A stretch of 64,000 nt of DNA from a virus (lineage: Duplodnaviria > Caudoviricetes). This document shows, one piece after another, positions 1,047 to 61,008 of this stretch (the first letter of the stretch is position 1; each line of letters starts with the position of its first letter). The notes beneath the pieces were generated by a model. That model saw nothing but the letters and a program-made list of their open reading frames with translations, ran no database searches and was not told the DNA's origin. The stretch lies in the IMG/VR virus record IMGVR_UViG_3300027754_000035. The stretch is one strand, 5' to 3'. Made by a program: the position numbers and the translations under genes.

Positions 1047-1862
1047 TTACAAACGATTGTAATTTTGCCAGTATTTGTATATTGATTGTGCGTCACTACT
1101 CACCATGTTTTGATGCTTAATGATGTTGAGCCAAGACTCAAAACAAATAACGTCTGCTGGTGTTCCTAAACAAACATAGTTGTCTGTGGTATAGTGAGTT
1201 ACTTTCAAACCATCGTTGATCATCAAATTATAGGGAAGTGTGACATAGTATTCACCATTCACCGACAACTTTTCAGACATCAAACGTTTGAAATACTTTT
1301 TGAGTAATGCGCCGGATTTGAAATAATAGATACCGTTTGATGCTGGTTCATCATGCTTTACCTCACTAATAGGCTTTTTTTCTTGTATGTGCTTAACAAT
1401 ATCACCATCCACAGACAAGAATGCAAATGATTTGTTGTATAATTTGTGTGGGTGAAAGCCGGCGTGCGTCACCACACAGCCGTCCGAATTAGTGTCTCGG
1501 CAGTATTTCAAAAATGCATCAAAATCCCACTTTTGTGTCAAGTCACAATAACTCACAACTACTTCTTCATCGTCTGGAATTTGATCAAAAATGTGGGAAA
1601 TTGAAAATACTGGACCCAGATTGTTTGGCGGAATGGCCAATACTTTTGATTTCTTGTATTCTCCAATCACACGATCAATGCCGTGAGTAGATACATCGCT
1701 GCTCTTTACTACAAAAATAAAGTCACTATCGGCCACGGTGGGATACACATCCAAAGCATATTCCAATAACCGTTTGCCGTGTATACGAATCAGTGGTTTG
1801 ATTGGATAACCTTGTGAGGTAAATCTTTCACTGTTTCCCGATAGAGTTAAAACAATTTTCAT
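1047..1862 (-). CDS. Sugar-phosphate nucleotidyltransferase-like protein (GT-A/NTP_transferase fold)
   Basis: N-terminal LSGNSERF..GYPIKPLI (GxGxRF..KPL-like), YCD, NGEYYV, LGTP motifs. Confidence 0.75.
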   Translation of the reverse strand: MKIVLTLSGNSERFTSQGYPIKPLIRIHGKRLLEYALDVYPTVADSDFIFVVKSSDVSTHGIDRVIGEYKKSKVLAIPPNNLGPVFSISHIFDQIPDDEEVVVSYCDLTQKWDFDAFLKYCRDTNSDGCVVTHAGFHPHKLYNKSFAFLSVDGDIVKHIQEKKPISEVKHDEPASNGIYYFKSGALLKKYFKRLMSEKLSVNGEYYVTLPYNLMINDGLKVTHYTTDNYVCLGTPADVICFESWLNIIKHQNMVSSDAQSIYKYWQNYNRL

Positions 1863-2301
1863 AAAATTCTATATTATCACTTATTATACCATCAAACTGA
1901 AGAATTTCATTGATGGTGTATTGAGATAGTTCAGGCATCATTAATATGCCACGTCTATAATTAGTGGTGGTATATGGATTTACCATAATAATATTTTTGC
2001 TGGTTGCCGCAAAATCTTCTTTGGCGTGGTAAAATACGTTGAGGGTTTCAAACTGTCGCAGATGAAAAAATGCAGCATCGTTTTTGCAATGAATCCACAG
2101 TCGAGCATAGTTCGATGTTAAGAACTGTGGAACCATTTGCCATTCTGGAACATCATGACCCAGAAACAATTTATCGTTCTGTAGCCACACATCAATTTCA
2201 ACATCGTAGCCTTTATCCAATACAGATTGTATTGTGGTTGGTGAGTTTTCGTAAACTTTGTGGCGACCATTAAGGTTGCCCCGATGACTTATAAACAACA
2301 T
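1828..2301 (-). CDS. PLC-like / glycerophosphodiester phosphodiesterase-like protein
   Basis: ISHRGN, EN, GYDVEIDVW, LGHD, LWIHCKN motifs of the GDPD-like TIM barrel. Confidence 0.7.
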   Translation of the reverse strand: MLFISHRGNLNGRHKVYENSPTTIQSVLDKGYDVEIDVWLQNDKLFLGHDVPEWQMVPQFLTSNYARLWIHCKNDAAFFHLRQFETLNVFYHAKEDFAATSKNIIMVNPYTTTNYRRGILMMPELSQYTINEILQFDGIISDNIEFYENCFNSIGKQ

Positions 2302-2406
2302 ATCAATATATATTTATGTACACAAATTCAAAAACTAATAATTTCAAATAAAATAAATAGCGTTGTTGCGTCTGTGGCTAGTTATGGTAAGATCTATAAA
2401 AGAGCT

Positions 2407-2850
2407 ATGCAAACTGTTAAAACTATATTTATACGACAGCCGTTTTACCTCAAGCCTTTGTCTGCAATTAAACGAGCTATACGCAAACTATCACTGATCA
2501 AAAATACTCCGAAGTTGGAAAGAGTTGGTGACACTTGGTTTGGATTGGAGCAAGCGGTGGATGTACCGTTTAGATGGTCCCACCCGATTGCCAAATTGAA
2601 CATTCAAAATTTGAGTAAATTGACCATAAGAGTCACCGATCCGCTTGGCCGAGATTTACACATTTCCACCAAAGAAGTAATGACAACCGTCAAGTTGAAC
2701 CCTGGTGAAACGTATGATATTGTGTTGAGTGTATGTGATGCTGAGGATGTAGTGCTGCGATGCGACCCATTTAATCCCGACAGTGACACACGTTGTTTGG
2801 GAATGCAATATTTGTTTATTGCCACACAGCAATGTATGGTATTGAATTAA
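2407..2850 (+). CDS. Small beta-sandwich protein with W..E...FRWSHP / DTRxLG motifs (paralog of 4276-4701)
   Basis: Start moved to ATG 2407 because the ORF-track start at 2260 overlaps the divergent gene; motifs shared with 4276-4701. Confidence 0.6.
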   Translation: MQTVKTIFIRQPFYLKPLSAIKRAIRKLSLIKNTPKLERVGDTWFGLEQAVDVPFRWSHPIAKLNIQNLSKLTIRVTDPLGRDLHISTKEVMTTVKLNPGETYDIVLSVCDAEDVVLRCDPFNPDSDTRCLGMQYLFIATQQCMVLN

Positions 2851-2853
2851 CAC

Positions 2854-4272
2854 ATGGAAAAGCACAATCAAAATAAAATAGATTTCTTGAGAGAAAGAAT
2901 TGATTCGTTGGTATTGATATCCAAGGACAAGAATCTATTAGACAACCTAAAATCGGAAGCGGATGTTGAATTTTATTTGATTGATGACATGGATGCGTTG
3001 AATGGTATTGGTATCTACACCGAACTCATCAAAAAGATGGGAAAAACGTTTGTGTTTGTCAATAGTAGTTTTGAGGAAAACAAGTTTCTTAAATTCATTG
3101 TGAACCGCACACTCAATGTTTTTGAAAAAGAAAAGGTGTTCTGTAATATTATTGTATATTCCAAGTACGACTTTCCCCGCAAAGAATCTATCAAAAAGAT
3201 TTCTTTGATTAAATTGTTCAATCGTTCCAATATTGAATTGGATACTATTGATAGTGTGTATTATGTTGGTCAATATGGTACATCCGGTTATGCATCGGCG
3301 TGCAAAGGTTATATTGCTGAATATGTCACCAAAGGTATTCCCATCAGTTGGAATACGTTGAAGTTTGACAGCACTAAGTTAGATGTGACCAATTATGTCA
3401 ATGCATTGGCAGAAAGTGCTATTGGCCGGCCCTTATCAGGCAAGGATCAGATTACATTACATTCTACACCAGACTTGTGGCCTGAGTACATCCGAACTTA
3501 CGAATGCAGCAAATACAAGCGAGTTGTTGGATATTGTGCTTGGGAGAGTAGCAAACTACCAGACAAGTGGGTGGAGTGTATCAATTTGCTACCAGAAGTG
3601 TGGGTTCCCAGTAATTACAACAAAATTGTTTTCAAAAACTGTGGTGTTAAAAGTAAAATTCAAGTAGTGCCCCACGTTTGGTTTGACCAACAGTTGGTGG
3701 CTAAAAACAAGATTACAATCACAGACTGCTTTGGTACAGAACTCAGCAAAACCAAGTATACGTTTTATAGCATTGGCGAATTAACAGCAAGAAAAAGTAT
3801 CGAAGAATTGGTACGAGTATTTGACAAATTTAACGATTCGTATCCAAATACTCAATTGTTGCTCAAAGTACATTACAAGGATTACACCATCCAAAACATC
3901 AATTACATTGTAAACAAACTAAATGTGTTGACAAATAAGCTGGGTAAGAGTATACATTTATTGTTGATGAATTTGAACGAGCGTGAAATGTTGAGCTTAC
4001 ATGGATTCGGTGACTGCTACATCAGCCTTACCAAATCTGAAGGGTTTGGTCTGACCATCTTTGAAGCATTCAAGTTGAACAAGGAGGTTATCGCCACGGG
4101 TTATAGTGGTCATTTGGATTTCTTGGGTAACGATCATTCTGGACTTGTAAAATATAAGCTCGCCGACATCCAAGGCATGGAAACTTTCAGTATCAATTAT
4201 ACCAGTGACCAACAATGGGCTTATCCCGATTTGGATCACGCTTATACACTCATGGAACAAAAAGTAAAATAA
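2854..4272 (+). CDS. Glycosyltransferase, GT4-like (GT-B) with N-terminal extension
   Basis: GTSGYA, AWESSKLP..W, EVWVPS, RKSIEEL, GDCYISLTKSEGFGLTIFEA, WAYPDL; paralog of 49261-50226. Confidence 0.88.
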   Translation: MEKHNQNKIDFLRERIDSLVLISKDKNLLDNLKSEADVEFYLIDDMDALNGIGIYTELIKKMGKTFVFVNSSFEENKFLKFIVNRTLNVFEKEKVFCNIIVYSKYDFPRKESIKKISLIKLFNRSNIELDTIDSVYYVGQYGTSGYASACKGYIAEYVTKGIPISWNTLKFDSTKLDVTNYVNALAESAIGRPLSGKDQITLHSTPDLWPEYIRTYECSKYKRVVGYCAWESSKLPDKWVECINLLPEVWVPSNYNKIVFKNCGVKSKIQVVPHVWFDQQLVAKNKITITDCFGTELSKTKYTFYSIGELTARKSIEELVRVFDKFNDSYPNTQLLLKVHYKDYTIQNINYIVNKLNVLTNKLGKSIHLLLMNLNEREMLSLHGFGDCYISLTKSEGFGLTIFEAFKLNKEVIATGYSGHLDFLGNDHSGLVKYKLADIQGMETFSINYTSDQQWAYPDLDHAYTLMEQKVK

Positions 4273-4275
4273 TTT

Positions 4276-4701
4276 ATGGAAGATGCAATTATAATCAATC
4301 AGTCGTTTTTGAAAAGACTCAAAAACGCTTTTTCAGTGCGAGCATTCAATACATCTGGTACACTAACATTGACTGGTGTGGATTGGTACGATGTTGAAAA
4401 AGATCTCGACGGCAATAAGTTTCGTTGGTCACATCCAAAAACCAGAATTGAATTCGAAAATATTTCGGCACTCCGAATAAAGTTGTTGTGTCCAATTGGG
4501 CGTGAAGTACACATTTTTAATGATAAAATTAACTTCAAACAAAAACTTTCAACAAATAAGCCATATACGTTTGTTATCAACACTATCGGTTCTATGTATT
4601 TGAACATCGAGACCGATCCATACATGCCTGAGAATGATACACGCCAACTAGGACTCTGTTTCACTCAGGTTTGTGAACACCCAAGTCTGTCTTGCCTATA
4701 A
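4276..4701 (+). CDS. Small beta-sandwich protein (paralog of 2407-2850)
   Basis: DWYDVE..FRWSHP and PENDTRQLGL motifs. Confidence 0.6.
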   Translation: MEDAIIINQSFLKRLKNAFSVRAFNTSGTLTLTGVDWYDVEKDLDGNKFRWSHPKTRIEFENISALRIKLLCPIGREVHIFNDKINFKQKLSTNKPYTFVINTIGSMYLNIETDPYMPENDTRQLGLCFTQVCEHPSLSCL

Positions 4702-4702
4702 A

Positions 4703-5740
4703 ATGAAAAAGTTACTATATCTGTCTTGCCATTGTGTTTTGGAATATGATGAACTGCGTCTACTCAACGATCTTGGCTACGATGTTTTTACCAACGACGC
4801 ATATCATCGACCACGCACACCAGTTGTTAATCGTAGACCACCACTAGATATTCCCGATAATGAGGACTATCTCAAGAGGTTCTACGACATGTGTCACGTC
4901 AACAGCATCAACCCCGATGTCAAGCCTGAGCAATACAACAATTTGCTCACGGATGCCATGATTGACGCATTTGATGTTATTATGGTGATGCACTTACCAC
5001 GATTCATCGAACAAAACTGGGAACGTATCAAGCATAAAACGGTGATCTGGAGAACTATTGGGCAATCCACACCCGACGTAGAAGCCACAATCACACGATA
5101 TCGTGATCAGGGTCTCAAGATTGTACGCTATAGTCCCAAAGAACGTGAACTACCAAATTACGCCGGTGAGGATGTTATGATTCGTTTTGGTAAGTATGAG
5201 AGTGATTATTTACCATATGTTGGAGATCAAAACTATGTAATGACATTTGGACAGAATGTTATTGGTAGAAATGATCACTGCCGATATGATTTGATTCGTA
5301 GTGTTGCCAGAGACTATAATTTCAAACTGTTTGGTCCAGGTAACACCGACGCACCAATGAGTTATGGCGAGTTAGATTATACTACTCAACTATTGCAGTT
5401 GAGTAAAAACAAGGCATACTTGTATAGCGGCACATGGCCTGCCTCATACACACTCAATTTTATTGAGGCATGGATGAGTGGAATTCCAGTTGTAGCTTTG
5501 GGTGAAGAACTCACCAGTAAAGTTGGTAAGTTCCCATACGAAGTCAACAGTCTCATCAAGCATGGAGAAAATGGATTTTGTAGCAATAATATCAAAGAAC
5601 TCAAGGAATGTATTCGTGAAGTCATGATTGATAACACTTTGCGCAAACGCATCAGTGAAAATGGTAAAAAAGATGCCAGTGAAATTTTTGGTGCCACAAC
5701 AATTAAAGCGCAATGGAAGTCGTTTCTTGAAACTCTATGA
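4703..5740 (+). CDS. Glycosyltransferase, GT-B (GT4-like)
   Basis: YTLNFIEAWMSGIPVVA, IKHGENGF, R.RISENGKKDA..F C-terminal GT1/GT4 signature; start set at MKKLLYL. Confidence 0.82.
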   Translation: MKKLLYLSCHCVLEYDELRLLNDLGYDVFTNDAYHRPRTPVVNRRPPLDIPDNEDYLKRFYDMCHVNSINPDVKPEQYNNLLTDAMIDAFDVIMVMHLPRFIEQNWERIKHKTVIWRTIGQSTPDVEATITRYRDQGLKIVRYSPKERELPNYAGEDVMIRFGKYESDYLPYVGDQNYVMTFGQNVIGRNDHCRYDLIRSVARDYNFKLFGPGNTDAPMSYGELDYTTQLLQLSKNKAYLYSGTWPASYTLNFIEAWMSGIPVVALGEELTSKVGKFPYEVNSLIKHGENGFCSNNIKELKECIREVMIDNTLRKRISENGKKDASEIFGATTIKAQWKSFLETL

Positions 5741-6894
5741 AAATATTTTGTGATTTTCATCATAGAGATTTGGTCAACTCAATGTGTCACCTATTCGAAA
5801 AACGAATGGGTGGTGAGTTGTTTGTTCCATGGGGACTAGACTATTACAAACAAGGATATTGGGGAGTTGTGGATGCCAACAAGGATGCCGTGGCAGAGCA
5901 ATTTTTAATCAATACGTTTACAGAGACCGACAAACAAACGTTCACAGATCGTGGTGATGGAACTGTTCTGGTAAATACCAATGATGGTAAACTCCCATTC
6001 AAAGGTATAAATTTTGACGCTTTTTGTAAAACTAAGTTTGACATCATTATTGCGACCGTACCGGCTCATATCGAATTGTATATGAAGTTGCAGCGGGATC
6101 ATCAACCACAAGCCAAGTTCATTTTTGAGGCTGGTAATAATTGGGGACACATACCCACCAATGTTCCCAACTTTTTGAACTCCACAACATACACATTTAT
6201 TTCTGGAGAAGATATTCATGGGTGGACCATGCAAAGTTTGTATAAGAAATACCAAAAGAAAGACTTGTACAAAGGTCTACACAAAATCTTTCAGAATCGT
6301 AGAACTGGCAAGAAGTGCAACATGGTGTTTTTTCATCCAGAGTTTGACTTAAATATTTTTAAGAACGATAATAGCATAAAAAACATCAAGAGTATCAGCA
6401 ACTTACGTCATGGATGCAATACATTGGGTGGGTTGTATGAATTGGAACGACGACTTCCAGATTGGACCATCAAAGCATATGGTATCAACAACCGAGATGG
6501 TGAACTACAAACAGATCAGGATATTGCCAGAGTGATGAACGAGTCTGGGTTTATTTATCACGTCAAACCTGTTGGTGACGGTTATGGATACAACACACAC
6601 CAAAGCTTTGCTGTGGGATCAATTGTAATCACCGACAGTAGTCATATGTGTAGTGGTGGCAATCCAGATGAATGGTTTACATCACATCTGTTGTTGGATA
6701 TTGAAAATTATCATACTGCTCCTACATTTGTTGATTGGAGTCGTTACAATTACAATAGTATTGTTGATAGATTGAACTGGTGTGCTGATAACTATCCCAC
6801 TCTGCAACAGAACGCAATGAATAAATTCAAAGAAGTAGTGGATTTTGATGCTGAATACCAGAAGATCCGTGTATTTATTGAAAGACTGATATGA
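5737..6894 (+). CDS. Putative GT-B glycosyltransferase (paralog of 6891-7886)
   Basis: DFHH N-terminus, FFHPEFD, YHVKPVGDGYGYNTHQSFAVG donor-binding-like loop. Confidence 0.6.
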   Translation: MKIFCDFHHRDLVNSMCHLFEKRMGGELFVPWGLDYYKQGYWGVVDANKDAVAEQFLINTFTETDKQTFTDRGDGTVLVNTNDGKLPFKGINFDAFCKTKFDIIIATVPAHIELYMKLQRDHQPQAKFIFEAGNNWGHIPTNVPNFLNSTTYTFISGEDIHGWTMQSLYKKYQKKDLYKGLHKIFQNRRTGKKCNMVFFHPEFDLNIFKNDNSIKNIKSISNLRHGCNTLGGLYELERRLPDWTIKAYGINNRDGELQTDQDIARVMNESGFIYHVKPVGDGYGYNTHQSFAVGSIVITDSSHMCSGGNPDEWFTSHLLLDIENYHTAPTFVDWSRYNYNSIVDRLNWCADNYPTLQQNAMNKFKEVVDFDAEYQKIRVFIERLI

Positions 6895-7886
6895 ATGTTT
6901 TATTAGATTACCACCACCTTTCCTTGCTGCGGTCGCTTTATATACTGTTTAGAGAACGCTTTCAATTCAACGTAGACATACCATCTGGATGGGATTGGTA
7001 TTACGAGGGATCGCTGTACAGTTCATATGCTCCAGAAGTAGGTGCATACACCATATCACCCGAATTTAACAACGCATATTTTCATCGATATTTACCAGAT
7101 CTTAAACCAGGTGCATATGAAAAGTTCAAGGACAATCATTACGACATCGTGGTGTGTACACTGTTGGAAAACTATGTTGCTTGGAAAACGTTGGTACGCC
7201 AATATAACCTCAAAGCCAAAGTAATTTTTCAGATTGGTAACAATATTCCGTTGTGGTGTCAACCAACTCAGTTTGAAAACATAATGAGCAGTTCTTGGCC
7301 TTGTTATGTTAACTATCCATGCAAAAACAAGGTGTTTTATCATCAAGAATTTGACACCAAGTTGTTTAAGCAAAATGTGGACTGTAACAGAAAAAGTGTG
7401 GGTAATCTACAACATTTCATGCAGATGCCTGAGTTGTTTTACGGTTTGGAAAAAAGCATGACGGACTATACATTCCACGCACATGGTGCTGGTAATCGTG
7501 ACGGTTTTATTCCAAATGGCGAACACGAAATGAGTGATTTCATAAAAAATATAGGCTTTTTGTTTCATTGCAAAGTGGTGGACGAAGGTTATGGACATAA
7601 TATCCACAATGCTTTTGCGTGTGGAAAACCAATTATCACCGATAGCAGCCATATGGGTGTTGATTGGAATGGTTGGATCGGCAACACAGCATCATTGCTG
7701 TTTGAAGACGGCAAAACTATTATTGATGTAAATGGCAAAACTATCAAGGAAGTCGAGGGGGCGATCCGAGATATGACTGACAACTATGCGGAAGTCAGTA
7801 ATTATGTACTTAAGAAGTTTCAGACAGTCAGTGACTTTGACGATGAGTTTTTAGCTATTAAGTCGTTTTTATCAAACCTTGTATGA
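6891..7886 (+). CDS. Putative GT-B glycosyltransferase (paralog of 5737-6894)
   Basis: DYHH N-terminus, FYHQEFD, FHCKVVDEGYGHNIHNAFACGKPII. Confidence 0.62.
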   Translation: MNVLLDYHHLSLLRSLYILFRERFQFNVDIPSGWDWYYEGSLYSSYAPEVGAYTISPEFNNAYFHRYLPDLKPGAYEKFKDNHYDIVVCTLLENYVAWKTLVRQYNLKAKVIFQIGNNIPLWCQPTQFENIMSSSWPCYVNYPCKNKVFYHQEFDTKLFKQNVDCNRKSVGNLQHFMQMPELFYGLEKSMTDYTFHAHGAGNRDGFIPNGEHEMSDFIKNIGFLFHCKVVDEGYGHNIHNAFACGKPIITDSSHMGVDWNGWIGNTASLLFEDGKTIIDVNGKTIKEVEGAIRDMTDNYAEVSNYVLKKFQTVSDFDDEFLAIKSFLSNLV

Positions 7887-12019: not shown

Positions 12020-12022
12020 ATT

Positions 12023-15108: not shown

Positions 15109-15110
15109 AC

Positions 15111-21070: not shown

Positions 21071-21077
21071 ATACGAA

Positions 21078-36750: not shown

Positions 36751-36768
36751 CACAAACAACAATTTATT

Positions 36769-45888: not shown

Positions 45889-46155
45889 ATGGATTACAAA
45901 CCAAAGTTACATTTTACGTGGTCGTGCATTCAACTAAATTTTGAAAAATCATGGTACAACTATTTCAGCGTTAACCTATTTGTTCCTTATTTTGAAGCAG
46001 GTAAGTTTATAGAGTTGGGAGATTCAGAAAAAACTACTAATTATTCGTTTAATGCTCCAACAACAGTTTCATTTGTTTCAACACACGCATATTGGGGTAT
46101 CAAAACACAGCTATTGGGTTTTGGTATAGGATTTTTGCGACAAAACGGTTATTAA
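45889..46155 (+). CDS. Hypothetical protein
   Basis: Packed ORF. Confidence 0.5.
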   Translation: MDYKPKLHFTWSCIQLNFEKSWYNYFSVNLFVPYFEAGKFIELGDSEKTTNYSFNAPTTVSFVSTHAYWGIKTQLLGFGIGFLRQNGY

Positions 46156-46529: not shown

Positions 46530-46532
46530 ATA

Positions 46533-52193: not shown

Positions 52194-54641
52194 ATGGCCG
52201 ACGTAGATTATAACGATTTACTAATTAAAGACAACTTTGTTGATTGGATGGATATCATTTCTAAAAATGATCCAGATCCTATTATTAGACAATCAGCAAA
52301 AGAGGTGGGATGGGCAGTAAATGGTAATTCACAAGTTAGTCCAAAACCATCATACAAATCGTTGTATGCGAAATATTCGTTTATAGTAGTTCCCATTAAA
52401 ACAGAAAATGGCCTAAAATCACAACTTTATTCTTATAACGGCCCGACCCGACAAAAATTCATTGGCATAATTTATGCCCCCGGCGTAGTATATGATTCCA
52501 ATTGCTGTGGACCATTACCAACACCCAGTGTAACCCCAACACCCAGTGTCACACCCACACCAAGTGTAACTCTGACCCCAACATCCAGTGTTACTCCTAC
52601 TGTTACACCAAGTTTGACACCAACAGCCAGTGTTACACCAAGCTCGACAGCCACACCAAGCTTGACACCAACGGCCAGTGTTACACCCACAGTAACCAGA
52701 ACCGTAACACCCAGCGTAACAGCTACTCCAAGTGTGACGGCAACACCCAGCGTAACAAAAACACCAAGTGTAACGCCAACAGTCACAAATACCGCAACAC
52801 CAACTGGAACAGCAACGCCCAGTGTAACTAAAACTCCAAGTGTGACGGCAACTCCTAGTCATACTGTGACGCCAACACATACCGCTACAGCAACTCAAAC
52901 TCCTAGTGTAACTCCAACCAAAACAATTACACCTAGTACCACAACAACTCCAAGCGTCACGCCTAGTCGCACAACTACACCAAGTTTAACACCAACACCA
53001 TCAATTACAAGATCGACTAGTGTAACACCAACTAAAACAGTAACACCAACCAGAACAACAACAGCTACTCCAAGCATCACAGCTACTCCAAGCATCACAG
53101 CTACACCAAGCGCAACTGGTAGTGGTACTCCAGGTTCCAGTGTGACACCAACACCAAGCATCACAGCTACTCCAAGCATCACAGCTACACCAAGCGCAAC
53201 TGGTAGTGGTACTCCAGGTTCCAGTGTGACACCAACACCAAGCATCACAGCTACACCTAGTGAAACACCAACACCAAGCATCACAGCTACTCCAAGCATC
53301 ACAGCTACACCAAGCGCAACTGGTAGTGGTACTCCAGGTTCCAGTGTGACACCAACACCAAGCATCACAGCTACACCTAGTGAAACACCAACACCAAGCA
53401 TCACAGCTACTCCAAGCATCACAGCTACACCAAGCGCAACTGGTAGTGGTACTCCAGGTTCCAGTGTGACACCAACACCAAGCATCACAGCTACACCTAG
53501 TGAAACACCAACACCAAGCATCACAGCTACTCCAAGCATCACAGCTACGCCAAGCGCAACTGGTAGTGGTACTCCAGGTTCCAGTGTGACACCAACACCA
53601 AGCATCACAGCTACACCTAGTGAAACACCAACACCAAGCATCACAGCTACTCCAAGCATCACAGCTACACCTAGTGAAACACCAACACCAAGCATCACAG
53701 CTACTCCTAGTGAAACACCAACACCAAGCATCACAGCTACACCTAGTGTGACAGCAACTAGAACAGCTACACCTAGTGAAACACCAACACCAAGCATCAC
53801 AGCTACTCCAAGCATCACAGCTACTCCAAGCATCACAGCTACACCAAGCATCACAGCTACTCCAAGCATCACAGCTACTCCAAGCATCACAGCTACACCA
53901 AGCATCACAGCTACACCAAGCATCACAGCTACACCTAGTGTGACAGCTACACCTAGTGTGACAGCAACTAGAACAGCGACGCCAAGCGCAACTGGTAGTG
54001 GTACTCCGGGTTCCAGTGTGACACCAACTAGAACAGCGACGCCAAGCGCAACTGGTAGTGGTACTCCGGGTTCCAGTGTGACACCAACTAGAACAACAAC
54101 ACCTAGCTTGACAGCTACACCCAGTGTAACTGCAACTCCAAGCTTGACACCGAGCAGTTCGGATACAACAACCGGATTATTTTATGTTGTTATTGCTGAT
54201 TTGCCTAGCACACAGAGTTTTTGTGTGACTCAACCTTCATGTGTAGACTTCCCAGACTGCACACCATGCTCCGATGCTGACCCTGTGCCTTATTGCCCAG
54301 GTAACATAACATACGCTTCGACTGTCAATGTTTATGGATCGTTGCCGGGGGCATATATGAATCTTGATCATGTTATTGATACATCAGCATCTTGTGGTAG
54401 TACAGCTACCAACACAGTAATGATTAAATTCAACAATAATTTCTTAACGGCGGCATCTGGTGACACTAACATAGCTTATCAATGCCATCGTACATTCCCA
54501 ACTTACAATATAAACGGTTGTTGTGATATTGGGGCGGACGATGTATACAAGACTTACGATGGTTTAAGTAGTCAAATCCAAAATGCTCAGACCTTTGGGC
54601 CTGGAACTGGAACGGTGGGCGACCCATATATCATCAATTAA
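52194..54641 (+). CDS. Mucin-like virion protein: shared N-terminal anchor, Thr/Pro/Ser stalk, Cys-rich tip
   Basis: N-terminal ~95 aa homologous to 54674; ~550 aa of TPSxTAT repeats; C-terminal domain with 9 Cys; late motif 3 nt before ATG. Confidence 0.75.
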   Translation: MADVDYNDLLIKDNFVDWMDIISKNDPDPIIRQSAKEVGWAVNGNSQVSPKPSYKSLYAKYSFIVVPIKTENGLKSQLYSYNGPTRQKFIGIIYAPGVVYDSNCCGPLPTPSVTPTPSVTPTPSVTLTPTSSVTPTVTPSLTPTASVTPSSTATPSLTPTASVTPTVTRTVTPSVTATPSVTATPSVTKTPSVTPTVTNTATPTGTATPSVTKTPSVTATPSHTVTPTHTATATQTPSVTPTKTITPSTTTTPSVTPSRTTTPSLTPTPSITRSTSVTPTKTVTPTRTTTATPSITATPSITATPSATGSGTPGSSVTPTPSITATPSITATPSATGSGTPGSSVTPTPSITATPSETPTPSITATPSITATPSATGSGTPGSSVTPTPSITATPSETPTPSITATPSITATPSATGSGTPGSSVTPTPSITATPSETPTPSITATPSITATPSATGSGTPGSSVTPTPSITATPSETPTPSITATPSITATPSETPTPSITATPSETPTPSITATPSVTATRTATPSETPTPSITATPSITATPSITATPSITATPSITATPSITATPSITATPSITATPSVTATPSVTATRTATPSATGSGTPGSSVTPTRTATPSATGSGTPGSSVTPTRTTTPSLTATPSVTATPSLTPSSSDTTTGLFYVVIADLPSTQSFCVTQPSCVDFPDCTPCSDADPVPYCPGNITYASTVNVYGSLPGAYMNLDHVIDTSASCGSTATNTVMIKFNNNFLTAASGDTNIAYQCHRTFPTYNINGCCDIGADDVYKTYDGLSSQIQNAQTFGPGTGTVGDPYIIN
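53154..53633 (+). repeat. Four tandem 120-bp in-frame repeats (40-aa unit)
   Basis: Sequence lines recur every 120 nt; one mismatch seen in copy 4. Confidence 0.9.
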
Positions 54642-54673
54642 TAAACAACTGATACCAAATACTATTTATTGAT

Positions 54674-57600
54674 ATGGCTAAAATGGATTATAACAGTCTT
54701 TTGAACAAGCAAAACTTTGTTGCTTGGATGTTGAGTATTGCGAGTGATGATCCAAATCCAACAATTAGACAGGCAGCCAAAGAAATTGGGTACGAAGCAA
54801 ATGGCAACAGTATTATTGGTCCAAAGCCTTATTACAATGCTTTGTATCTGAAATACAAATTCAAAGTTGCGCCAATTCAAACCGATAATGGTATACAAAC
54901 ACAACTGTTTGAATTGGTCGGAATAAATTATAGATCGGTAGGTATTATACGTACACCCACCATTATAAAGACTTTTGTTGCACCAGCACCTACACCATCA
55001 AGTTCGACTCCAGATCCTTCAGTAACACCGACAACCTCGCTAGATGTGTCAGCTACTCCAAGCGTCACAGTCACTCCAAGCGTCACAGTCACTCCAAGCA
55101 CTACAGCTACTCCAAACGCAACTGGCAGTGGTACTCCAGGTTCCAGTGTGACACCAACACCAAGCATCACAGCTACTCCAAGCATTACAGCCACACCAAG
55201 CTCGACAGCCACACCAAGCATCACAGCTACACCTAGCTTAACAGCAACTCCAAGCTTAACAGCAACACCTAGTGAAACTGCTACACCAAGCTTGACTGCA
55301 ACTCCAAGTGAAACAGCAACTCCAAGCTTGACAGCAACACCAAGTGAAACAGCAACAGCAAGCTTGACTGCAACTCCTAGCTTGACTGCAACTCCTAGCT
55401 TGACTGCAACTCCAAGCTTAACAGCAACTCCAAGCTTGACTGCAACTCCAAGCTTGACTGCAACACCAAGCTTGACTGCTACACCTAGTGAAACAGCAAC
55501 TCCAAGTGAAACAACAACAGCAAGCTTGACTGCTACACCAAGTGAAACAGTAACTCCAAGCTTGACTGCAACACCAAGCTTGACTGCTACACCTAGTGTG
55601 ACTGCTACACCTAGTGTGACTGCAACTCCAAGCTTGACTGCTACACCAAGCTTAACAGCAACTCCAAGTGAAACAGCAACTCCAAGCTTGACTGCTACTC
55701 CAAGTGAAACAGCAACTCCAAGCTTGACAGCAACTCCAAGCTTGACTGCTACACCAAGCTCGACAGTCACTCCAAGCTTGACACCAACTCCAAGCATTAC
55801 AGCTACACCAAGCATCACAGCCACACCAAGCATCACAGCTACACCAAGCACTACAGTCACACCAAGCTCGACAGCGACGCCAAGCTCGACAGTCACTCCA
55901 AGTCCAACTGTAACAGCAGTACCAGATTGGGGTCCAGTGTTCTTTGGTGGAGCGGCTTATGGCACAAACAGTACATCATTTGTTAAATCCTCCGGCACCG
56001 AAGGCTGGAACAGCAAAGTTTATTCCACTGTAGGTTACATAGACGGAGTGTCGGTTACGGCGCAATGTAATACTACTACTAATGCAGACGTGATGTTTGG
56101 TCTTAGTGTTGATCCAGCATCAACAGCACACGTTGATAATGAATATGTAAATCTTGATTATGCGTGGTGCTTCCTTGGCGGCACGTTGCAAATTTTTGAA
56201 AGCGGTGAGAATGCGTACAGCTACGGTGCTTATACCGCCAGCACAGTTCTTAACATTACTTATGATGGTACAAATGTAAAATACTACAAAGATGGTACAT
56301 TAGCTAGAACTGTGCAACGTGACGATCTACGTTTAACACCACTGTATTTCAGCACTGCTTTCCACTATATCAATACAAGCATTGCATTAACAAATGTGGC
56401 GTTTGTTTCAGCACCCGGTGTGACACCAACACCAACACCCAGCGTCACCGCAACAGCAACAGCAACACCAACACCAAGTTTAACAGCAACTCCAACAGTT
56501 ACTCCAACAATCTCAGTTACACCAAGTGTGACACCAAGCTTAACAGCAACACCAAGTGTAACAGCAACAATCTCAGTCACACCAAGCTTAACAGCAACCC
56601 CAAGTGTAACAGCAACAACCTCAGTTACACCAAGCTCAACAGCAACACCAAGCTCAACACCAGACCCAAGCTTAACAGCAACACCTAGTGTGACAGCAAC
56701 ACCTAGTGTGACTGCTACACCTAGTGTGACTATTACTCCAAGCTCGACAGTCACTCCAAGCTTGACACCAACAGTATCAGTTACTCCAAGCTTGACACCA
56801 ACAGCATCAGTTACTCCAAGCTTAACAGCAACAGCATCAGTTACTCCAAGCTTAACAGCAACACCAAGCTCAACACCAGAACCAAGCTTAACAGCAACAC
56901 CAAGCTTGACAGCTACGCCGAGCTTGACACCAAGTCCAACTGTGACAGCGGTACCAGATTGGGGTCCAGTGTTCTTTGGTGGAGCGGCTTATGGCACAAA
57001 CAGTACATCGTTTACTAAAACCAGCGGAACGAATGGTTGGAACAGCAAAGTTTATTCAACGTTGGCTTACACAGGTGGAGCGTCGGTTACGGCGCAAACG
57101 AATACCACTGCTGGTATCTCGATGTTTGGTCTTAGTGTTGATCCAGCATCAACAGCACATGTCAACAGTGAATATGCTAATATTGATTATGGATGGTACC
57201 TCGAGCCCGCCGGCGGCGATGGTCTGTACATTTGGGAAAGCGGTGTGTACGTGGGTAGCTTCGGTGCTTATACAGTCAACACAATTCTTAATGTTATTTA
57301 TGATGGTGCTAATGTAAGATATTACAAAGACGGTGTATTAGCTAGAACTGTGCAACGTGACGATCTAAGGTCAACACCACTGTATTTCATTGCTACTTCC
57401 TATTATGTGGACGCAACCAGAGCAATAACAGATGTGACGTTTGTTTCAGCACCAAGTGTGACACCAACACCAACACCCAGCGTCACCGCAACAGCAACAG
57501 CAACACCAACACCAAGCGTCACAGCCACACCAAGCGTCACAGCCACACCAAGCTTGACACCAACTCCAAGCACTACAGCCACACCAAGCACTACAGTCAC

Positions 57601-59338
57601 ACCGAGCGTCACAGCCACACCAAGCACTACAGTCACACCAAGCGTCACAGCCACACCAAGCTTGACACCAACCCCAAGTCCAACTGTGACAGCGGTACCA
57701 AGTTGGGGACCAGTGTTCTTTGGTGGGGCCGCTTATGGTGCAAATAGTACATCATTTACTAAATCCTCCGGCACCGAAGGCTGGAACAGCAAAGTTTATT
57801 CCACTGTGGCTTACACAGGTGGAGTATCAATCACAGCACAAGCTACTGGAACCTATACTACGTTTATGTTTGGTCTTAGTGTTGATCCAGCATCAACAGC
57901 ACACGTTGATGAATATGCTAATATTGATTATGCTTGGTTCTTGCCCGGAAGCAGTGGTTACAGCGCACGAATTTATGAAAGCGGCATCGACGTTGGCGTT
58001 GACTTCGGCATTTATACATCCAGTACAGTTTTTAATGTTACGTATGATGGTGCTAATGTAAGATATTACAAAGATGGTGTATTAGCTAGAACTGTGCTAC
58101 GTGACGATCTAAGGTCAACACCACTGTATTTCATATTCACGCCTTATCATATCAATACAAGCATTGCATTAACAGATGTGGCATTTGTTTCAGTACCAAG
58201 TGTGACACCAACACCAACAGTTACACCTAGTGTGACTGCAACTCCAAGCTTGACACCAACAGTTACTCCAAGCTCAACAGCAACTCCAAGCTTGACACCA
58301 ACAGCATCAGTCACACCAAGCTTGACGGCCACACCAAGCTTAACAGCAACTCCAAGTGAAACAGCAACTCCAAGCTTGACTGCTACTCCAAGTGAAACAG
58401 CAACTCCAAGTGAAACAGCAACAGCAAGCTTGACTGCTACACCTAGCTTGACTGCAACACCAACAGTATCAGTTACTCCAAGCTTGACACCAACAGCATC
58501 AGTTACACCTAGTGTGACACCAACAAAGACAGTTACACCTAGCTTGACACCAACACCTCCAGCACCAAGTGTGACACCAACAAAGACAGTTACACCTAGC
58601 TTGACACCAACAAAGACTGCAACTCCAACAGTTACACCAACCCCAAGTCCAACTGTGACAGCGGTACCAAGTTGGGGACCAGTGTTCTTTGGTGGTGCTG
58701 CTTATGGTACAAACAGCACATCGTTTGCTAAACCCAGCGGCACCCAGGGCAGCAACAGCAAAGTTTATTCCACGGTGGCTTACACAGGCGGAGCATCAAC
58801 CACAGCACAACTTGCTGGCGTACTCGGCGCGGCCTTTGGTCTTAGTGTCAATCCAGCATCAACAGCACACGTTAACCTTGAATATGCTAATATGGATTAT
58901 GGTTGGTACTGCAACGGCACCTACGCGGGCGGGATGTTGATGATGGAAAGTGGCAACAACCAAGGTGGCGTTACTTGGACAGCCGGCGCTGTTTTTAACA
59001 TTACTTATGATGGTGCCAACGTAAGATACTACAAAGACGGTGTATTACAAAGAACTGTGCTACGTACCGATCTACGCTCAACACCATTGTATTTCATGTG
59101 TACTTCATATGGAGTTGACGCAACCAATTTACAAACGGATGTGGCATTTGTATCGATACCAAGTGTGACACCAACTCCAACAGTTACTCCAAGCATCACG
59201 GCAACACCTAGTGTGACACCAACAAAGACAGCCACACCTAGTGTGACACCAACAAAGACAGCTACTCCAAGCTTGACACCAACAGTCACTCCAAGCTTGA
59301 CACCAACACCAAGTGTGACGCCAACACCAGGTATTTGA
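54674..59338 (+). CDS. Mucin-like adhesin: N-terminal anchor plus four ConA/SPRY-like beta-sandwich domains separated by Thr/Pro/Ser stalks
   Basis: Four ~165-aa repeats (WGPVFFGG...GWNSKVYS...FGLS...DYxW...[11 protein letters not shown]...LYF) at about 55919, 56951, 57695 and 58664. Confidence 0.78.
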
Positions 59339-59736: not shown

Positions 59737-59768
59737 AAAAAAGCCATCGGAACTGTCCGATGGCTTTT
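59737..59768. terminator. Bidirectional rho-independent terminator
   Basis: AAAAGCCATCGGA-ACTG-TCCGATGGCTTTT between convergent genes. Confidence 0.88.
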
Positions 59769-59794
59769 GAATTTGGTGGGTTTGATAATTTATA

Positions 59795-60004
59795 TCACTT
59801 GAAAGGCACAGCCCACTTTTTTGAGTCTACGTTTGACTCTGCTACCTTAGCAATAAAGTTGTCAACCTTTTGTTGACGAGCTTGAGCCTTTTGCTCAACA
59901 GCTTGTTGTGCTGCCTGAACTTGTGCATTACTCATACCCGGATTGTTGGATACGATACCACCGATTGGTTTAAGACTTACGATTCCACCTGCTACGATTG
60001 CCAT
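59795..60004 (-). CDS. Small Ala/Gln-rich protein with strong RBS
   Basis: AAAGGAAA Shine-Dalgarno upstream; GGIVS twice; followed by terminator. Confidence 0.65.
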   Translation of the reverse strand: MAIVAGGIVSLKPIGGIVSNNPGMSNAQVQAAQQAVEQKAQARQQKVDNFIAKVAESNVDSKKWAVPFK

Positions 60005-60069
60005 AATATTTCCTTTGGTTAGTGTTTCTATGTATAACTATCACACAAAGTTTGTAACAATTGTAATTT

Positions 60070-61008
60070 TCATATAAATTCAAAGTTTCGAATCATATGT
60101 GGATTGTAGCGTGGATAATAGTCCGAAACAATTTTCTTGAATGGTTCAAACAAGTTATAATTGTTGATATCAATTTCTTGGTTCATTGCGTCGATATATC
60201 TTATAAACATGTCGTGTGGATCATTATGTAATGTTAGATTCCGCAAATGACCATAGTATCGTGTGCTCATACCACGCAAATGTGCATATTTTACATTTGC
60301 ATGATTGATCACGTAAGTTTTGTTGCTATAAAGATGTGACTGCATTAAAACCCGCTGGTATTGATCATAAACTCTGGTGGTATCAGCTGAAAATACATCT
60401 TTATGGTTATCAACTATACAGTATGGTTGCGATGTTGCATTGGCATACTCACCATTGTTACAGTTTGCGCCAAAATGAATCTGTGGTTTTTCAATTTCTA
60501 AAAAATGAATATCAGGTAGACTCAACAAGTAGTCTTTGCGCCATACCATGAACGATATATCACCACAATCTCGGTGAAATGCGCCATTACTGATAAAATC
60601 GAAATCTTCGTTGAATACACTCTGAATTTTGTCCCACTCAAAAGTTATGTAATCGGTTTCGATTCGTGCCACATAATCCACTTCACAACGATCAACCACG
60701 TATTCAAATGGATACCCATACCCATGCTTGTATGTTCCATCTGTTTGATTGCCTGACCACTTGGTTGTTAATGGTGCGTGATCATTATGAATTGATACCA
60801 CGTTGGCATACCCACGCAAGTCATCACGCAACCATTCACCAAAATCACGGCTATCAGATTCACTGATTCCCAAAGCATGTGGATACGGCGAAACGACCAC
60901 ATCAATTTGATGCATACATTTGCTCAATTTTTCCTTGATCAGCTTTCTGGCTAAAGGAAAATCACAATAATCAATCCACGGAATGCAACAGTGTATACGT
61001 TTGGTCAT
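60070..61008 (-). CDS. Putative GT-A glycosyltransferase (distant paralog of 9013-9909)
   Basis: IHCCIPW, VARIETDY..WDKI, FMVWRKD, YAHLRG. Confidence 0.5.
   Translation of the reverse strand: MTKRIHCCIPWIDYCDFPLARKLIKEKLSKCMHQIDVVVSPYPHALGISESDSRDFGEWLRDDLRGYANVVSIHNDHAPLTTKWSGNQTDGTYKHGYGYPFEYVVDRCEVDYVARIETDYITFEWDKIQSVFNEDFDFISNGAFHRDCGDISFMVWRKDYLLSLPDIHFLEIEKPQIHFGANCNNGEYANATSQPYCIVDNHKDVFSADTTRVYDQYQRVLMQSHLYSNKTYVINHANVKYAHLRGMSTRYYGHLRNLTLHNDPHDMFIRYIDAMNQEIDINNYNLFEPFKKIVSDYYPRYNPHMIRNFEFI

What the first reader, a model, noticed from the sequence alone, without database searches (positions are those of the whole stretch)
1047..61008. Candidate complete phage-encoded virion glycosylation (glycan-shield) system: donors, transferases, decorators and mucin-like acceptors
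Seen in the sequence: about 20 GT-like ORFs; sugar-donor enzymes (RmlA/RmlB/NRS-ER for NDP-rhamnose, Gmd, Glf, a CDP-forming cytidylyltransferase, PPase); six methyltransferases, a GNAT and LicD; and three proteins with long Thr/Pro/Ser stalks (36064, 52194, 54674). The same late-type motif precedes the stalk genes and several glyco units (15719, 19134, 23987/24015, 41358, 49194), whereas the clamp loader has a sigma70-type promoter. Established: virion glycosylation by virus-encoded GTs is known in chloroviruses, Mimivirus and some mycobacteriophages, and S/T/P-rich tracts are typical O-glycan acceptors. Inference: this phage builds a complex methylated, phospho-substituted O-glycan coat on mucin-like fibres, on a scale more typical of giant eukaryotic viruses.
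Basis: partly seen in the sequence, partly recalled or inferred. Interest (0 to 1): 0.9.

Follow-up and report, generated by a model that had tools for sequence, protein, structure and literature searches.

The report
Phage glycan island with mucin-like fibres
An uncultured giant freshwater bacteriophage carries about twenty sugar-adding enzymes, its own sugar-donor pathways and three fibre proteins with long Thr/Pro/Ser stalks, so it probably sugar-coats its own fibres as giant viruses of algae and amoebae do, but no sugar has been shown on them.

Summary
The gene content is real. The window comes from an uncultured freshwater jumbo phage seen in lake metagenomes of at least 12 studies. It encodes these donor enzymes: RmlA, a dTDP-glucose 4,6-dehydratase, a plant/Mimivirus-type NRS/ER, Gmd, Glf, two nucleotidyltransferases and a pyrophosphatase. 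It also encodes a LicD-cytidylyltransferase fusion, a GNAT and seven methyltransferase genes.

There are 21 candidate glycosyltransferases. Seven pass Pfam cut-offs, nine more have weaker support (one of them a GT-A fold model), and five rest on a DxD-like motif only.

Three proteins without signal peptides carry 104, 568 and 873 residues of TPSxTA stalk. One of them bears four ConA-like lectin domains of a family found in phage tail proteins.

No glyco gene has a membrane segment, and no flippase, polymerase, transporter or priming transferase was found.

A TA[TC][TG]TAT box is about 17-fold enriched just upstream of start codons. It precedes the stalk genes and several glyco units, but in different variants, and its timing is untested.

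Virion-fibre O-glycosylation is the best reading (about 0.5). Host-surface remodelling is the main rival. No initiating polypeptide transferase was identified here.

The scan has flagged similar candidate systems on other DNA, in at least 16 other genomes.

The parts
1047..2301 (-). IspD/MobA-like nucleotidyltransferase (1047-1862) and a small upstream ORF of unknown function (1828-2301)
   Evidence: PF12804 1.7e-8; phrog_34507 of unknown function
2854..7886 (+). Block of GT-B candidates: 2854-4272 (GT4), 4673-5740, 5737-6894 and 6891-7886, plus the small ORF 4276-4701
   Evidence: PF00534 at 3.9e-9 (passes the cut-off), 5e-5 and 1.7e-3 (both below it). 5737 is a paralogue of 6891. 2854 is a paralogue of 49261 at 37% identity.
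7883..15707 (+). Block of GT-A candidates (7883, 8998, 9906, 10904, 13094, 15105 DUF3431), a Methyltransf_24 gene (12023-12637), and unknown ORFs (12630, 14215)
   Evidence: 7883 and 10904 resemble GT2 clusters by language-model features, scores 0.96-0.97. 13094 is 38% identical to 10904. PF13578 and PF11913 hits. 8998 and 9906 rest on a DxD-like motif only; Pfam, PHROGs and NCBIfam gave nothing for them.
15719..17552 (+). GT-A candidate (15719-16465, motif only) and UDP-galactopyranose mutase Glf (16353-17552)
   Evidence: PF03275 2.6e-70; EDD motif; TACTTAT box 4 nt before the ATG
17516..19134 (-). Nucleotide-diphospho-sugar transferase (17516-18193) and a weak GT-B candidate (18190-19134)
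   Evidence: PF03407 4e-11; PF00534 1.3e-3, below the cut-off; TATGTAT box upstream of 19134
19173..20475 (+). GT25 (19173-19850) and a DxD-bearing GT-A candidate (19840-20475)
   Evidence: PF01755 1.2e-5; FFDIDC motif
20447..23987 (-). Three SAM methyltransferases (20447, 21078, 21665), a GT32-type transferase (22243-22980), and a LicD plus cytidylyltransferase fusion (22977-23987)
   Evidence: PF13649, PF13578, PF04488, PF01467 3.8e-21 and PF04991 7e-5; TACTTAT box upstream of 23987
24015..25341 (+). EDD-motif ORF (24015-24626, phrog_24091) and a GT32/Caps_synth transferase (24616-25341)
26068..26655 (+). Weak methyltransferase, a paralogue of 21665
   Evidence: Pfam hits below the cut-off; 34% identity to 21665
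29453..30130 (+). Methyltransf_24 methyltransferase
   Evidence: PF13578 4.1e-8
30823..31962 (-). GDP-mannose 4,6-dehydratase (Gmd)
   Evidence: PF16363 9.4e-104
36064..37050 (+). Stalk protein 1: a 124-aa N-terminal domain plus a 104-aa C-terminal TPSxTA tail (36064-36750). It is followed in the same frame, after TAA and 6 codons, by a tail Collar-domain ORF (36769-37050).
   Evidence: PF07484 6e-24; the stop codon is identical in a second sample; TATTTAT box upstream
41358..42158 (+). GT-A candidate with a DSD motif
   Evidence: phrog_1574 6e-20 and a weak glycosyltransferase hit, phrog_34859; TATGTAT box
42618..43130 (-). Inorganic pyrophosphatase
   Evidence: PF00719 3.4e-44
46152..49194 (-). 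Rhamnose operon: RmlA (48349-49194), NRS/ER-type 3,5-epimerase/4-reductase (47483-48352), dTDP-glucose 4,6-dehydratase (46533-47510) and GNAT (46152-46529)
   Evidence: TATGTAT box plus TTCACA-16-TATAAT upstream. RNA-library contigs from two studies cover RmlA.
49261..50226 (+). GT4 glycosyltransferase, transcribed divergently from the rhamnose operon and 2 kb upstream of the fibre genes
   Evidence: PF00534 6.2e-8. Best PDB sequence hit is chlorovirus B736L, weak at E 0.001. The gene is conserved next to the fibres in strain L011.
52194..54641 (+). Fibre protein 2: about 100-aa N-terminal domain, 568-aa TPSxTA stalk, Cys-rich C-terminal domain
   Evidence: TATTTAT box 4 nt before the ATG
54674..59338 (+). 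Fibre protein 3: a paralogous N-terminal domain (50% identity) and five TPSxTA tracts (873 aa) separating four ConA-like lectin domains
   Evidence: Domain model pLDDT 92. SPRY, L-type lectin and galectin folds match. 1279 homologues, found with phage tail domains. TM 0.80 to a Cellulophaga phage structural protein.
60070..61008 (-). Divergent GT-A fold protein with a conserved E-T-D motif
   Evidence: Model pLDDT 81. All top PDB and Swiss-Prot fold hits are GT-A transferases. TATGTAT box. Homologues in distant relatives are not next to stalk genes.
62870..63988 (-). Protein with two Methyltransf_24 domains, outside the given span
   Evidence: PF13578 1.2e-16, two matched stretches

Best explanation
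The window is a glycan island of an uncultured freshwater jumbo phage with T4-type replication genes.

Shown at family level: the phage makes its own activated sugars.
- NDP-L-rhamnose, through RmlA, a 4,6-dehydratase and a bifunctional NRS/ER-type epimerase-reductase. This replaces RmlC plus RmlD.
- A GDP-6-deoxyhexose, through Gmd.
- UDP-galactofuranose, through Glf.
- CDP-activated alcohol phosphates, through two nucleotidyltransferases.
- A pyrophosphatase that would pull these reactions forward.

Shown at family or fold level: it also encodes 16 to 21 soluble GT-A and GT-B transferases, seven SAM methyltransferase genes (several of the sugar O-methyltransferase type, Methyltransf_24), a GNAT and a LicD phosphotransferase.

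Inferred: these enzymes work in the host cytoplasm on the Ser/Thr-rich TPSxTA stalks of three non-secreted fibre proteins, before or during virion assembly. The result would be mucin-like, extended, protease-resistant fibres carrying methylated and phospho-substituted O-glycans. One fibre displays four lectin-like binding domains on such stalks.

The fibres have a conserved N-terminal anchor of about 100 residues. Stalk length and distal domains are swapped between strains, as expected of exposed virion appendages.
For: - Gene families.
- Graded support for the GTs.
- No membrane segment in any glyco gene, and no Wzx, Wzy, ABC transporter, ligase or priming phosphoglycosyl transferase hit (Pfam).
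- The stalk proteins have no N-terminal hydrophobic signal. If they are glycosylated, this must happen in the cytoplasm, where virions assemble.
- Virion character of the fibres. The lectin-like domain family co-occurs with Phage-tail_3, the PB4 spike and collagen repeats. It matches a phage 'structural protein' at TM 0.80. A tail Collar ORF lies directly after stalk gene 1.
- Among the 150 best homologous proteins, only 2 have dense T/P/S tracts. The stalks are therefore a speciality of this GT-rich phage.
- Relatives L011 and L012 keep the anchor and a TPS stalk next to Rml genes, while the distal domains change.
- A TA[TC][TG]TAT box, about 17-fold enriched before start codons, precedes the three fibre genes and nine glyco genes.
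- Precedents from established knowledge: mycobacteriophage virion glycosylation (Freeman et al. 2023, cited in PMC12619734), and chlorovirus and Mimivirus glycan machineries that include GMD, NRS/ER-type rhamnose synthesis and sugar methylation.
Against: - No glycan has been observed.
- No member of a known polypeptide-initiating family (GT41, GT27, GT60, GtfA/GtfB) was recognised in the window. An earlier unchecked note places a GT60-like gene elsewhere in the genome, which I could not read.
- The main GT block (2.8-25 kb) lies 11 kb or more from the nearest stalk gene.
- Fibres use TATTTAT, while glyco units mostly use TATGTAT or TACTTAT. The Rml operon also has a sigma70-like promoter. Co-expression is therefore not established.
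- Homologues of the 60070 GT-A in distant relatives are not next to stalk proteins.
- Relative L012 keeps a TPS fibre although RmlB and GT 49261 are missing from that locus.
- Pro/Thr linkers can act as plain extended spacers without sugars.
- Many of the families are named after LPS, capsule or teichoic acid synthesis.
Confidence: 0.5

Rival explanations
1. Host-surface remodelling. The island rewires host LPS, capsule or teichoic-like glycans during infection, using the host's own lipid carrier, flippase and export systems. Possible purposes are blocking superinfection, changing grazer or phage recognition, or altering aggregation. On this reading the TPS stalks are plain, unglycosylated spacers.
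For: - Several families are typical of surface polysaccharide pathways: GT25 'LPS biosynthesis', Caps_synth, LicD, Rml, Gmd and Glf.
- Large T4-like cyanophages carry up to 13 GTs and 22 such genes, and the authors read them as cell-wall/LPS modification (PMC12801897).
- Huge-phage GTs are counted as envelope-associated in a 2026 preprint.
- The Rml operon has a sigma70-like promoter.
- The main GT block is not adjacent to the fibre genes.
Against: - No priming transferase, flippase, polymerase, transporter or ligase was found, and no membrane segment occurs in any glyco gene.
- This reading does not explain why the phage has three very long Ser/Thr-rich fibre proteins, which are rare among homologous fibres.
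- The cyanophage interpretation is itself untested.
Confidence: 0.28
2. Glycosylation of other virion proteins or a mixed target set. The enzymes decorate the capsid, tail or other proteins, as chlorovirus enzymes decorate the major capsid protein or mycobacteriophage enzymes decorate capsid and tail-tube C-termini. Alternatively they split between virion and host targets. The TPS stalks would be only one acceptor, or none.
For: - Twenty-one candidate GTs are more than one glycan type needs.
- The island extends beyond the window: a GT4 and a TylF-type methyltransferase lie upstream, and a double methyltransferase lies downstream.
- The 36064 product has its stalk as a C-terminal tail, like the mycobacteriophage acceptor sites.
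Against: No capsid or tail-tube gene lies in this window, so nothing could be tested here. No acceptor motif is known.
Confidence: 0.15
3. DNA hypermodification. Some or all of the transferases put sugars on modified bases of the phage DNA to escape restriction.
For: Phage GTs classically glucosylate DNA, and diverse DNA glycans are known (Pyle et al. 2024, cited in PMC12619734). A dCMP deaminase lies in the window at 45362-45883.
Against: - No pyrimidine hydroxymethylase was found in the window.
- Known DNA systems use one to a few GTs. They do not use about 20 GTs plus rhamnose, galactofuranose and deoxyhexose donors, sugar methyltransferases and LicD.
- This reading does not explain the stalks.
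Confidence: 0.05

Closest known systems
Giant-virus autonomous glycosylation (chlorovirus PBCV-1 capsid glycans; Mimivirus fibril glycans)
   Same: The virus encodes its own nucleotide-sugar synthesis, including GMD and an NRS/ER-type rhamnose synthase. The best PDB hits are Arabidopsis NRS/ER and Mimivirus L780. It also has many soluble GTs, sugar-type methyltransferases and fibre-like presumed acceptors. The best PDB sequence hit of GT 49261 is chlorovirus B736L, though weak.
   Different: The host is a bacterium and the virus a tailed phage. The presumed acceptors are TPSxTA repeat stalks, not a capsid protein or Mimivirus fibril proteins. Nothing has been shown biochemically.
Mycobacteriophage virion glycosylation (Che8, Corndog, Myrna; Freeman et al. 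2023)
   Same: Phage-encoded GTs are presumed to glycosylate virion proteins in the cytoplasm. The 36064 product carries its Ser/Thr-rich tract as a C-terminal extension.
   Different: Those phages have 2-4 GTs and use host sugar donors, and their acceptors are short C-terminal tails of capsid and tail-tube subunits. Here there are about 20 GT candidates, full donor pathways and stalks of 100-870 residues on fibres.
Cell-wall/LPS gene islands of large T4-like cyanophages (P-SSM2, S-SCSM1, S-SCSM2R)
   Same: A T4-type aquatic phage with a cluster of GTs (13 in S-SCSM2R), NDP-sugar enzymes and a cytidylyltransferase (PMC12801897).
   Different: This island is larger, adds methyltransferases, LicD and Glf, and is paired with mucin-like fibre proteins. 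No sequence-level relationship was found: there is no nucleotide match and no tblastn match for 10904.
Serine-rich repeat adhesin glycosylation of Gram-positive cocci (GtfA/GtfB plus extending GTs)
   Same: Cytoplasmic, stepwise O-glycosylation of very long Ser/Thr repeat stalks that hold out a binding domain, carried out by a dedicated set of soluble GTs.
   Different: No GtfA/GtfB pair was recognised and there is no accessory Sec export. The repeat here is TPSxTA rather than SAS[A/E/V].
Alpha-dystroglycan matriglycan priming (ISPD, FKTN/FKRP)
   Same: An IspD-like cytidylyltransferase plus a LicD-family phosphotransferase would add an alcohol phosphate from a CDP donor to an O-glycan on a mucin-like domain. 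This is an analogy from established knowledge.
   Different: The match is at family level only. Neither the substrate nor the acceptor was tested.

Membership tests
Virus-encoded autonomous glycosylation system (giant-virus type) | Virus-encoded nucleotide-sugar synthesis enzymes | tested here: met
   RmlA, 4,6-dehydratase, NRS/ER, Gmd and Glf
Virus-encoded autonomous glycosylation system (giant-virus type) | Multiple virus-encoded soluble glycosyltransferases | tested here: met
   7 pass Pfam cut-offs, 9 more have weaker or fold support, and none has a membrane segment
Virus-encoded autonomous glycosylation system (giant-virus type) | Glycans attached to virion structural proteins | not testable with these tools
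   Needs glycoproteomics of particles or of co-expressed proteins
Mycobacteriophage-type virion glycosylation | GT genes adjacent to the structural genes whose products carry Ser/Thr-rich acceptor tails | tested here: inconclusive
   GT 49261 and GT-A 60070 flank the fibre genes, but the main GT block is 11 kb or more away. Homologues of 60070 in distant relatives lack stalk neighbours.
Mucin-type or other known polypeptide O-GT initiation (GT27, GT41, GT60, GtfA/B) | Presence of a recognisable initiating polypeptide transferase | tested here: not met
   No such Pfam family was found among the 69 ORFs scanned. Five motif-only ORFs were not folded. The rest of the genome was not available.
Bacterial O-antigen/capsule cluster (Wzx/Wzy or ABC type) | Priming phosphoglycosyl transferase, flippase/polymerase or ABC transporter | tested here: not met
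   No Pfam hit and no hydrophobic segment in any glyco gene
Phage DNA glycosylation system | Hydroxymethyl-pyrimidine synthesis gene together with DNA GTs | tested here: inconclusive
   Only a dCMP deaminase lies in the window. The whole genome is not held.
T4-type late promoter (TATAAATA, gp55) | TATAAATA on the coding strand at -10 of late genes | tested here: not met
   The enriched box is TA[TC][TG]TAT on the coding strand, usually 4-5 nt before the ATG. It resembles the reverse complement of the T4 box. Its timing is untested.
ConA-like lectin/SPRY fold (fibre domains) | Two-sheet beta-sandwich that matches SPRY, L-type lectin and galectin structures | tested here: met
   Model pLDDT 92; Foldseek probability 1.0 and TM 0.6-0.65 to SPRY and Emp46/47. 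Ligand binding was not tested.

The most novel reading that the evidence does not exclude
A tailed bacteriophage runs a giant-virus-scale, host-independent glycosylation pathway: its own rhamnose, 6-deoxyhexose, galactofuranose and CDP-alcohol donors, about 20 transferases, methylation and phospho-substitution. With it the phage would build a mucin-like glycocalyx on hypervariable virion fibres. That would be the largest protein-glycosylation system known in any phage and a bacterial-virus counterpart of Mimivirus fibrils.
Probability: 0.4. Interest if true: 0.85.

Novelty: new variant of a known kind. Interest (0 to 1): 0.62.

Why it matters
Virion glycosylation in phages is so far documented only for a few actinobacteriophages with two to four transferases. 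Complex autonomous glycan machineries are regarded as a hallmark of giant eukaryotic viruses.

If this widespread lake phage really coats mucin-like fibres with self-made methylated glycans, three things follow. Phage particles could carry a glycocalyx that shapes adsorption, protease and grazing resistance, and antigenicity. The many 'LPS' or 'cell-wall' gene islands of aquatic phages would need re-reading. The island would also offer a compact set of soluble O-glycosylation enzymes and acceptor repeats for glyco-engineering.

The hypothesis can be tested by co-expressing a stalk fragment with the phage enzymes.

Tried and rejected
- Nucleotide search of 50 kb of the window (1-25000 and 26000-50000) against 50,697 phage records gave no match. 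No whole genome is held for the window.
- The nearest phage record by clamp loader, LR756508.1 (45% identity), has no lectin-domain homologue and only 2 GT1 hits. It is too distant for a co-occurrence test.
- The fibre N-terminal domain found nothing in IMG/VR, nothing among 5.8 billion proteins and nothing by atlas features. Only 4 metagenome loci of the same lineage matched. The lectin domain found nothing in IMG/VR by pattern search.
- The two homologous proteins with T/P/S tracts (P0091, P0099) lie in contexts that say nothing about GTs.
- Sequence searches for the orphan ORFs were empty: PDB, PHROGs and NCBIfam.
- tblastn of the 36064 N-terminal domain found nothing, and the 26698 product gave only short local matches.
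- The hits of GT 2854 in Streptomyces phages lie among nucleotide-metabolism genes and were not informative.
- The 'moraphage' paper (PMC12619734) and the huge-phage envelope preprint describe other lineages or general trends. The Freeman 2023 paper is not held.
- RNA-library contigs cover only a few patches. Stretches without cover, and the absence of start-site data, allow no conclusion.
- No complex-prediction job was sent, because no specific enzyme-acceptor pair could be nominated.

Full report
SOURCE AND SETTING

The window has no nucleotide match among 50,697 deposited phage genomes, and no whole genome is held for it. Its clamp loader (53-1012, AAA plus the Gp44 lid domain) is most similar to a 484-kb uncultured phage (45% identity). 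After that come jumbo phages such as RsoM2USA and PA5oct, and T4-like cyanophages and pelagiphages.

Identical copies of this protein lie on contigs from several freshwater lake metagenomes. There the window's left edge is preceded by a family-B DNA polymerase, a TylF-type methyltransferase and another GT4. Word matching finds the 44-52 kb stretch in lake metagenomes of 12 studies.

A tail Collar domain, a lysozyme-domain protein, a ClpP-like protease and homing-type nucleases fit a large tailed phage. G+C is 36-41%, except 44-47% in the fibre genes.

CHECK OF THE OBSERVATION: ENZYMES

Pfam confirms the donor enzymes:
- RmlA (48349-49194, 3e-60) and a 4,6-dehydratase (46533-47510). PDB hits for the dehydratase are all dTDP-glucose 4,6-dehydratases, down to 4e-76.
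- Gmd (1e-103), Glf (3e-70) and pyrophosphatase (3e-44).
- An IspD/MobA-like nucleotidyltransferase (1047-1862), and a protein that fuses LicD to a cytidylyltransferase domain (22977-23987).

The 47483-48352 product hits Pfam's RmlD substrate-binding family. In the PDB, however, it matches only Arabidopsis NRS/ER (1e-28) and the Mimivirus UDP-L-rhamnose synthase (2e-14). No bacterial RmlD matches. That explains why no RmlC is present. This enzyme type has thousands of close homologues in aquatic metagenomes, so it is not rare.

Decorating enzymes are also confirmed. There is a GNAT at 46152. Six methyltransferases lie in the span, three of them Methyltransf_24, the family that includes sugar O-methyltransferases. 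A seventh gene with two such domains lies at 62870-63988.

CHECK OF THE OBSERVATION: GLYCOSYLTRANSFERASE COUNT

I count 21 candidates with graded support.
- Seven pass Pfam cut-offs: 2854, 49261, 15105 (DUF3431), 17516, 19173, 22243 and 24616.
- Three hit GT1 below the cut-off: 4673, 6891 and 18190.
- 5737 is a paralogue of 6891.
- 7883 and 10904 (with its 38% paralogue 13094) resemble GT2 clusters by language-model features at 0.96-0.97.
- 41358 has a weak glycosyltransferase PHROG hit.
- 60070, modelled on 13 homologues (pLDDT 81), gives only GT-A transferases as fold matches. These include RmlT, TarP, TarS, collagen galactosyltransferase, LH3 and SunS in the PDB, and dolichol-phosphate mannosyltransferase subunit 1 in AlphaFold DB Swiss-Prot.
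- Five more (8998, 9906, 15719, 19840, 24015) show only an N-terminal hydrophobic strand and a DxD-like motif. They have no glycosyltransferase hit in Pfam, PHROGs or NCBIfam; 24015 matches only phrog_24091, of unknown function.

So 'about 20 GT-like ORFs' is reasonable as a count of candidates, not of proven enzymes.

CHECK OF THE OBSERVATION: STALK PROTEINS

- The 36064 product has a 124-aa N-terminal domain and a 104-aa C-terminal TPSxTA tail.
- The 52194 product has a 568-aa stalk between an N-terminal domain of about 100 aa and a Cys-rich C-terminal domain.
- The 54674 product has five tracts, 873 aa in all, that separate four globular repeats of about 170 aa.

The DNA shows 18-nt periodicity, with higher-order 120-nt units at 99% identity. 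The three proteins together offer about 750 Ser/Thr inside the tracts. No other protein of the window has such a tract.

WHAT THE FIBRES ARE

The globular repeat has 1279 homologues (E <= 0.001) among 1.84 billion representative proteins, often in multi-copy giants. In ten homologues sampled, it occurs with Phage-tail_3, Rcc01698_C, the T5 pb4 spike domain and collagen repeats.

A model built on 41 sequences (pLDDT 92) is a ConA-like beta-sandwich, closest to SPRY/B30.2 domains, the L-type lectins Emp46/47 and galectin. Its best viral match is a Cellulophaga phage 'structural protein' (TM 0.80, rmsd 1.8 A), followed by minor tail proteins. The 54674 product is therefore very probably a virion adhesin fibre.

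Stalk gene 36064 is followed by a tail Collar-domain ORF in the same frame, after TAA and six codons. The stop codon is identical in a second sample.

The N-terminal domains of the 52194 and 54674 products are 50% identical. Homologues exist only in four metagenome loci of the same lineage.
- In a close strain (L011) both genes are present, with quite different stalk lengths. The second gene has no lectin domains at all.
- In a more distant relative (L012) a cupredoxin-like domain sits between TPS tracts.

A conserved anchor, a variable stalk and swappable distal domains are the pattern of exposed virion appendages.

Among the 150 best lectin-domain homologues, only two have dense T/P/S tracts and many use collagen repeats instead. 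The stalks are thus a particular feature of this phage lineage.

WHERE THE GLYCANS GO

No glyco gene has a predicted membrane segment, and no priming transferase, flippase, polymerase, ABC transporter or ligase was found (Pfam calls). The fibres have no signal peptide.

The enzymes must therefore act in the cytoplasm. Their acceptors could be soluble (proteins or DNA) or host lipid-linked intermediates. Cytoplasmic stepwise O-glycosylation of very long Ser/Thr repeats by dedicated soluble GTs is known for the serine-rich repeat adhesins of Gram-positive cocci. Virion glycosylation by phage GTs is known in mycobacteriophages. Self-sufficient glycan machineries with GMD, NRS/ER-type rhamnose synthesis and methylated sugars are known in chloroviruses and Mimivirus (established knowledge). 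The combination seen here fits that model.

There are real gaps, however.
- No known polypeptide-initiating family was recognised in the window.
- The main GT block (2.8-25 kb) is 11 kb or more from the nearest stalk gene.
- Homologues of the fibre-adjacent GT-A 60070 in distant relatives sit beside a metallophosphoesterase and methyltransferase genes, not beside stalk proteins.
- Relative L012 keeps a TPS fibre while RmlB and GT 49261 are missing from that locus.

The literature reads comparable islands in large T4-like cyanophages (13 GTs and 22 genes in S-SCSM2R) as host cell-wall or DNA modification, without tests (PMC12801897).

THE PROMOTER ARGUMENT

An unbiased count shows TATTTAT, TACTTAT and TATGTAT as the three most enriched 7-mers in the 30 nt before start codons (p 8e-9 to 1e-7). 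Nineteen of 82 genes carry TA[TC][TG]TAT there, against about one expected.

The box usually ends only 4-5 nt before the ATG. If it is a -10-like element, the transcripts would be nearly leaderless. It resembles the reverse complement of the T4 late box, not the box itself.

It precedes all three stalk genes and the glyco genes at 6891, 15719, 19134, 23987, 24015, 41358, 46529, 49194 and 61008.

The variants differ, though. The fibres and four non-glyco genes (three of unknown function) use TATTTAT, and seven of the nine glyco genes use TATGTAT or TACTTAT. The Rml operon also has TTCACA-16-TATAAT. The best sigma70-like promoters precede small non-glyco genes (37317, 39451, 44871, 50488, 61325).

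Timing is untested. Unchecked notes from neighbouring windows say that TATTTAT marks structural genes. RNA-library contigs from two studies cover RmlA and a few other genes, which is only a weak hint of transcription.

VERDICT

The window holds the biggest glycan gene set I could find described for a tailed phage, paired with mucin-like fibre proteins.

- O-glycosylation of virion fibres is the best-supported mechanism (about 0.5).
- Host-surface remodelling is second (about 0.28).
- A wider or mixed set of virion targets follows (about 0.15).
- DNA modification is last (about 0.05).

I class it as a new variant of a known kind, virus-encoded virion glycosylation, and not as categorically new. 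Follow-up agents of this scan have reported similar pairings of GTs with Thr/Pro stalks in at least 16 other genomes. These are unchecked leads and I did not use them as evidence.

Noticed in passing
window 52194-59338; L011:3010-6298; L012:5427-6989: The fibre cassette is hypervariable between lake samples. A close strain has 529-aa and 547-aa versions, and the second lacks all four lectin domains. A more distant relative carries a cupredoxin-like domain between TPS tracts.
   Followed up: partly
window 36748-36771; L015:1-120: The TPS-tailed ORF 36064-36750 and the tail Collar ORF 36769-37050 are in the same frame, split by TAA plus six codons. The sequence is identical in a second sample. 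They could be two genes or a read-through fusion.
   Followed up: partly
window, 19 gene starts (e.g. 25349, 26687, 52183, 54663): The TA[TC][TG]TAT box mostly ends 4-5 nt before the ATG. This implies near-leaderless transcripts if it is a promoter. It resembles the reverse complement of the T4 late box TATAAATA.
   Followed up: partly
window 55900-59200: The four lectin-like repeats of the 54674 product are 61-72% identical to each other, with a conserved framework. Earlier notes of the scan report hypervariable loops and mosaic gene conversion, which I did not analyse.
   Followed up: no
window 30411-30812: A full-length NifU/IscU-type iron-sulphur scaffold gene (PF01592, 8e-49) sits next to Gmd. 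It is an unusual auxiliary gene for a phage.
   Followed up: no
window 44191-44838: A protein with one predicted membrane segment and a PAS domain, preceded by a terminator-like hairpin and a TATTTAT box. It may be a phage-encoded sensor.
   Followed up: no
window 37317-38309 and 51233-51598: Homing-type nuclease genes (HNH, T5orf172/MUG113, GIY-YIG) are interspersed between the fibre and glyco units.
   Followed up: no
L006:10038-10742 against window 6891-7886: In one lake sample the GT-B candidate 6891 is called as a shortened 234-aa gene, against 331 aa here. This suggests microdiversity or decay within the island.
   Followed up: no
window 48189-49193, 38255-38491, 40478-40746: Short contigs from two metatranscriptome studies match RmlA, the ClpP-like gene and a coiled-coil membrane protein at 97-100% identity. 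DNA carry-over cannot be excluded.
   Followed up: partly
window 31963-32030: A run of GACGAA repeats lies directly upstream of Gmd. It encodes an acidic Asp/Glu tail at the end of ORF 31974-32549.
   Followed up: no
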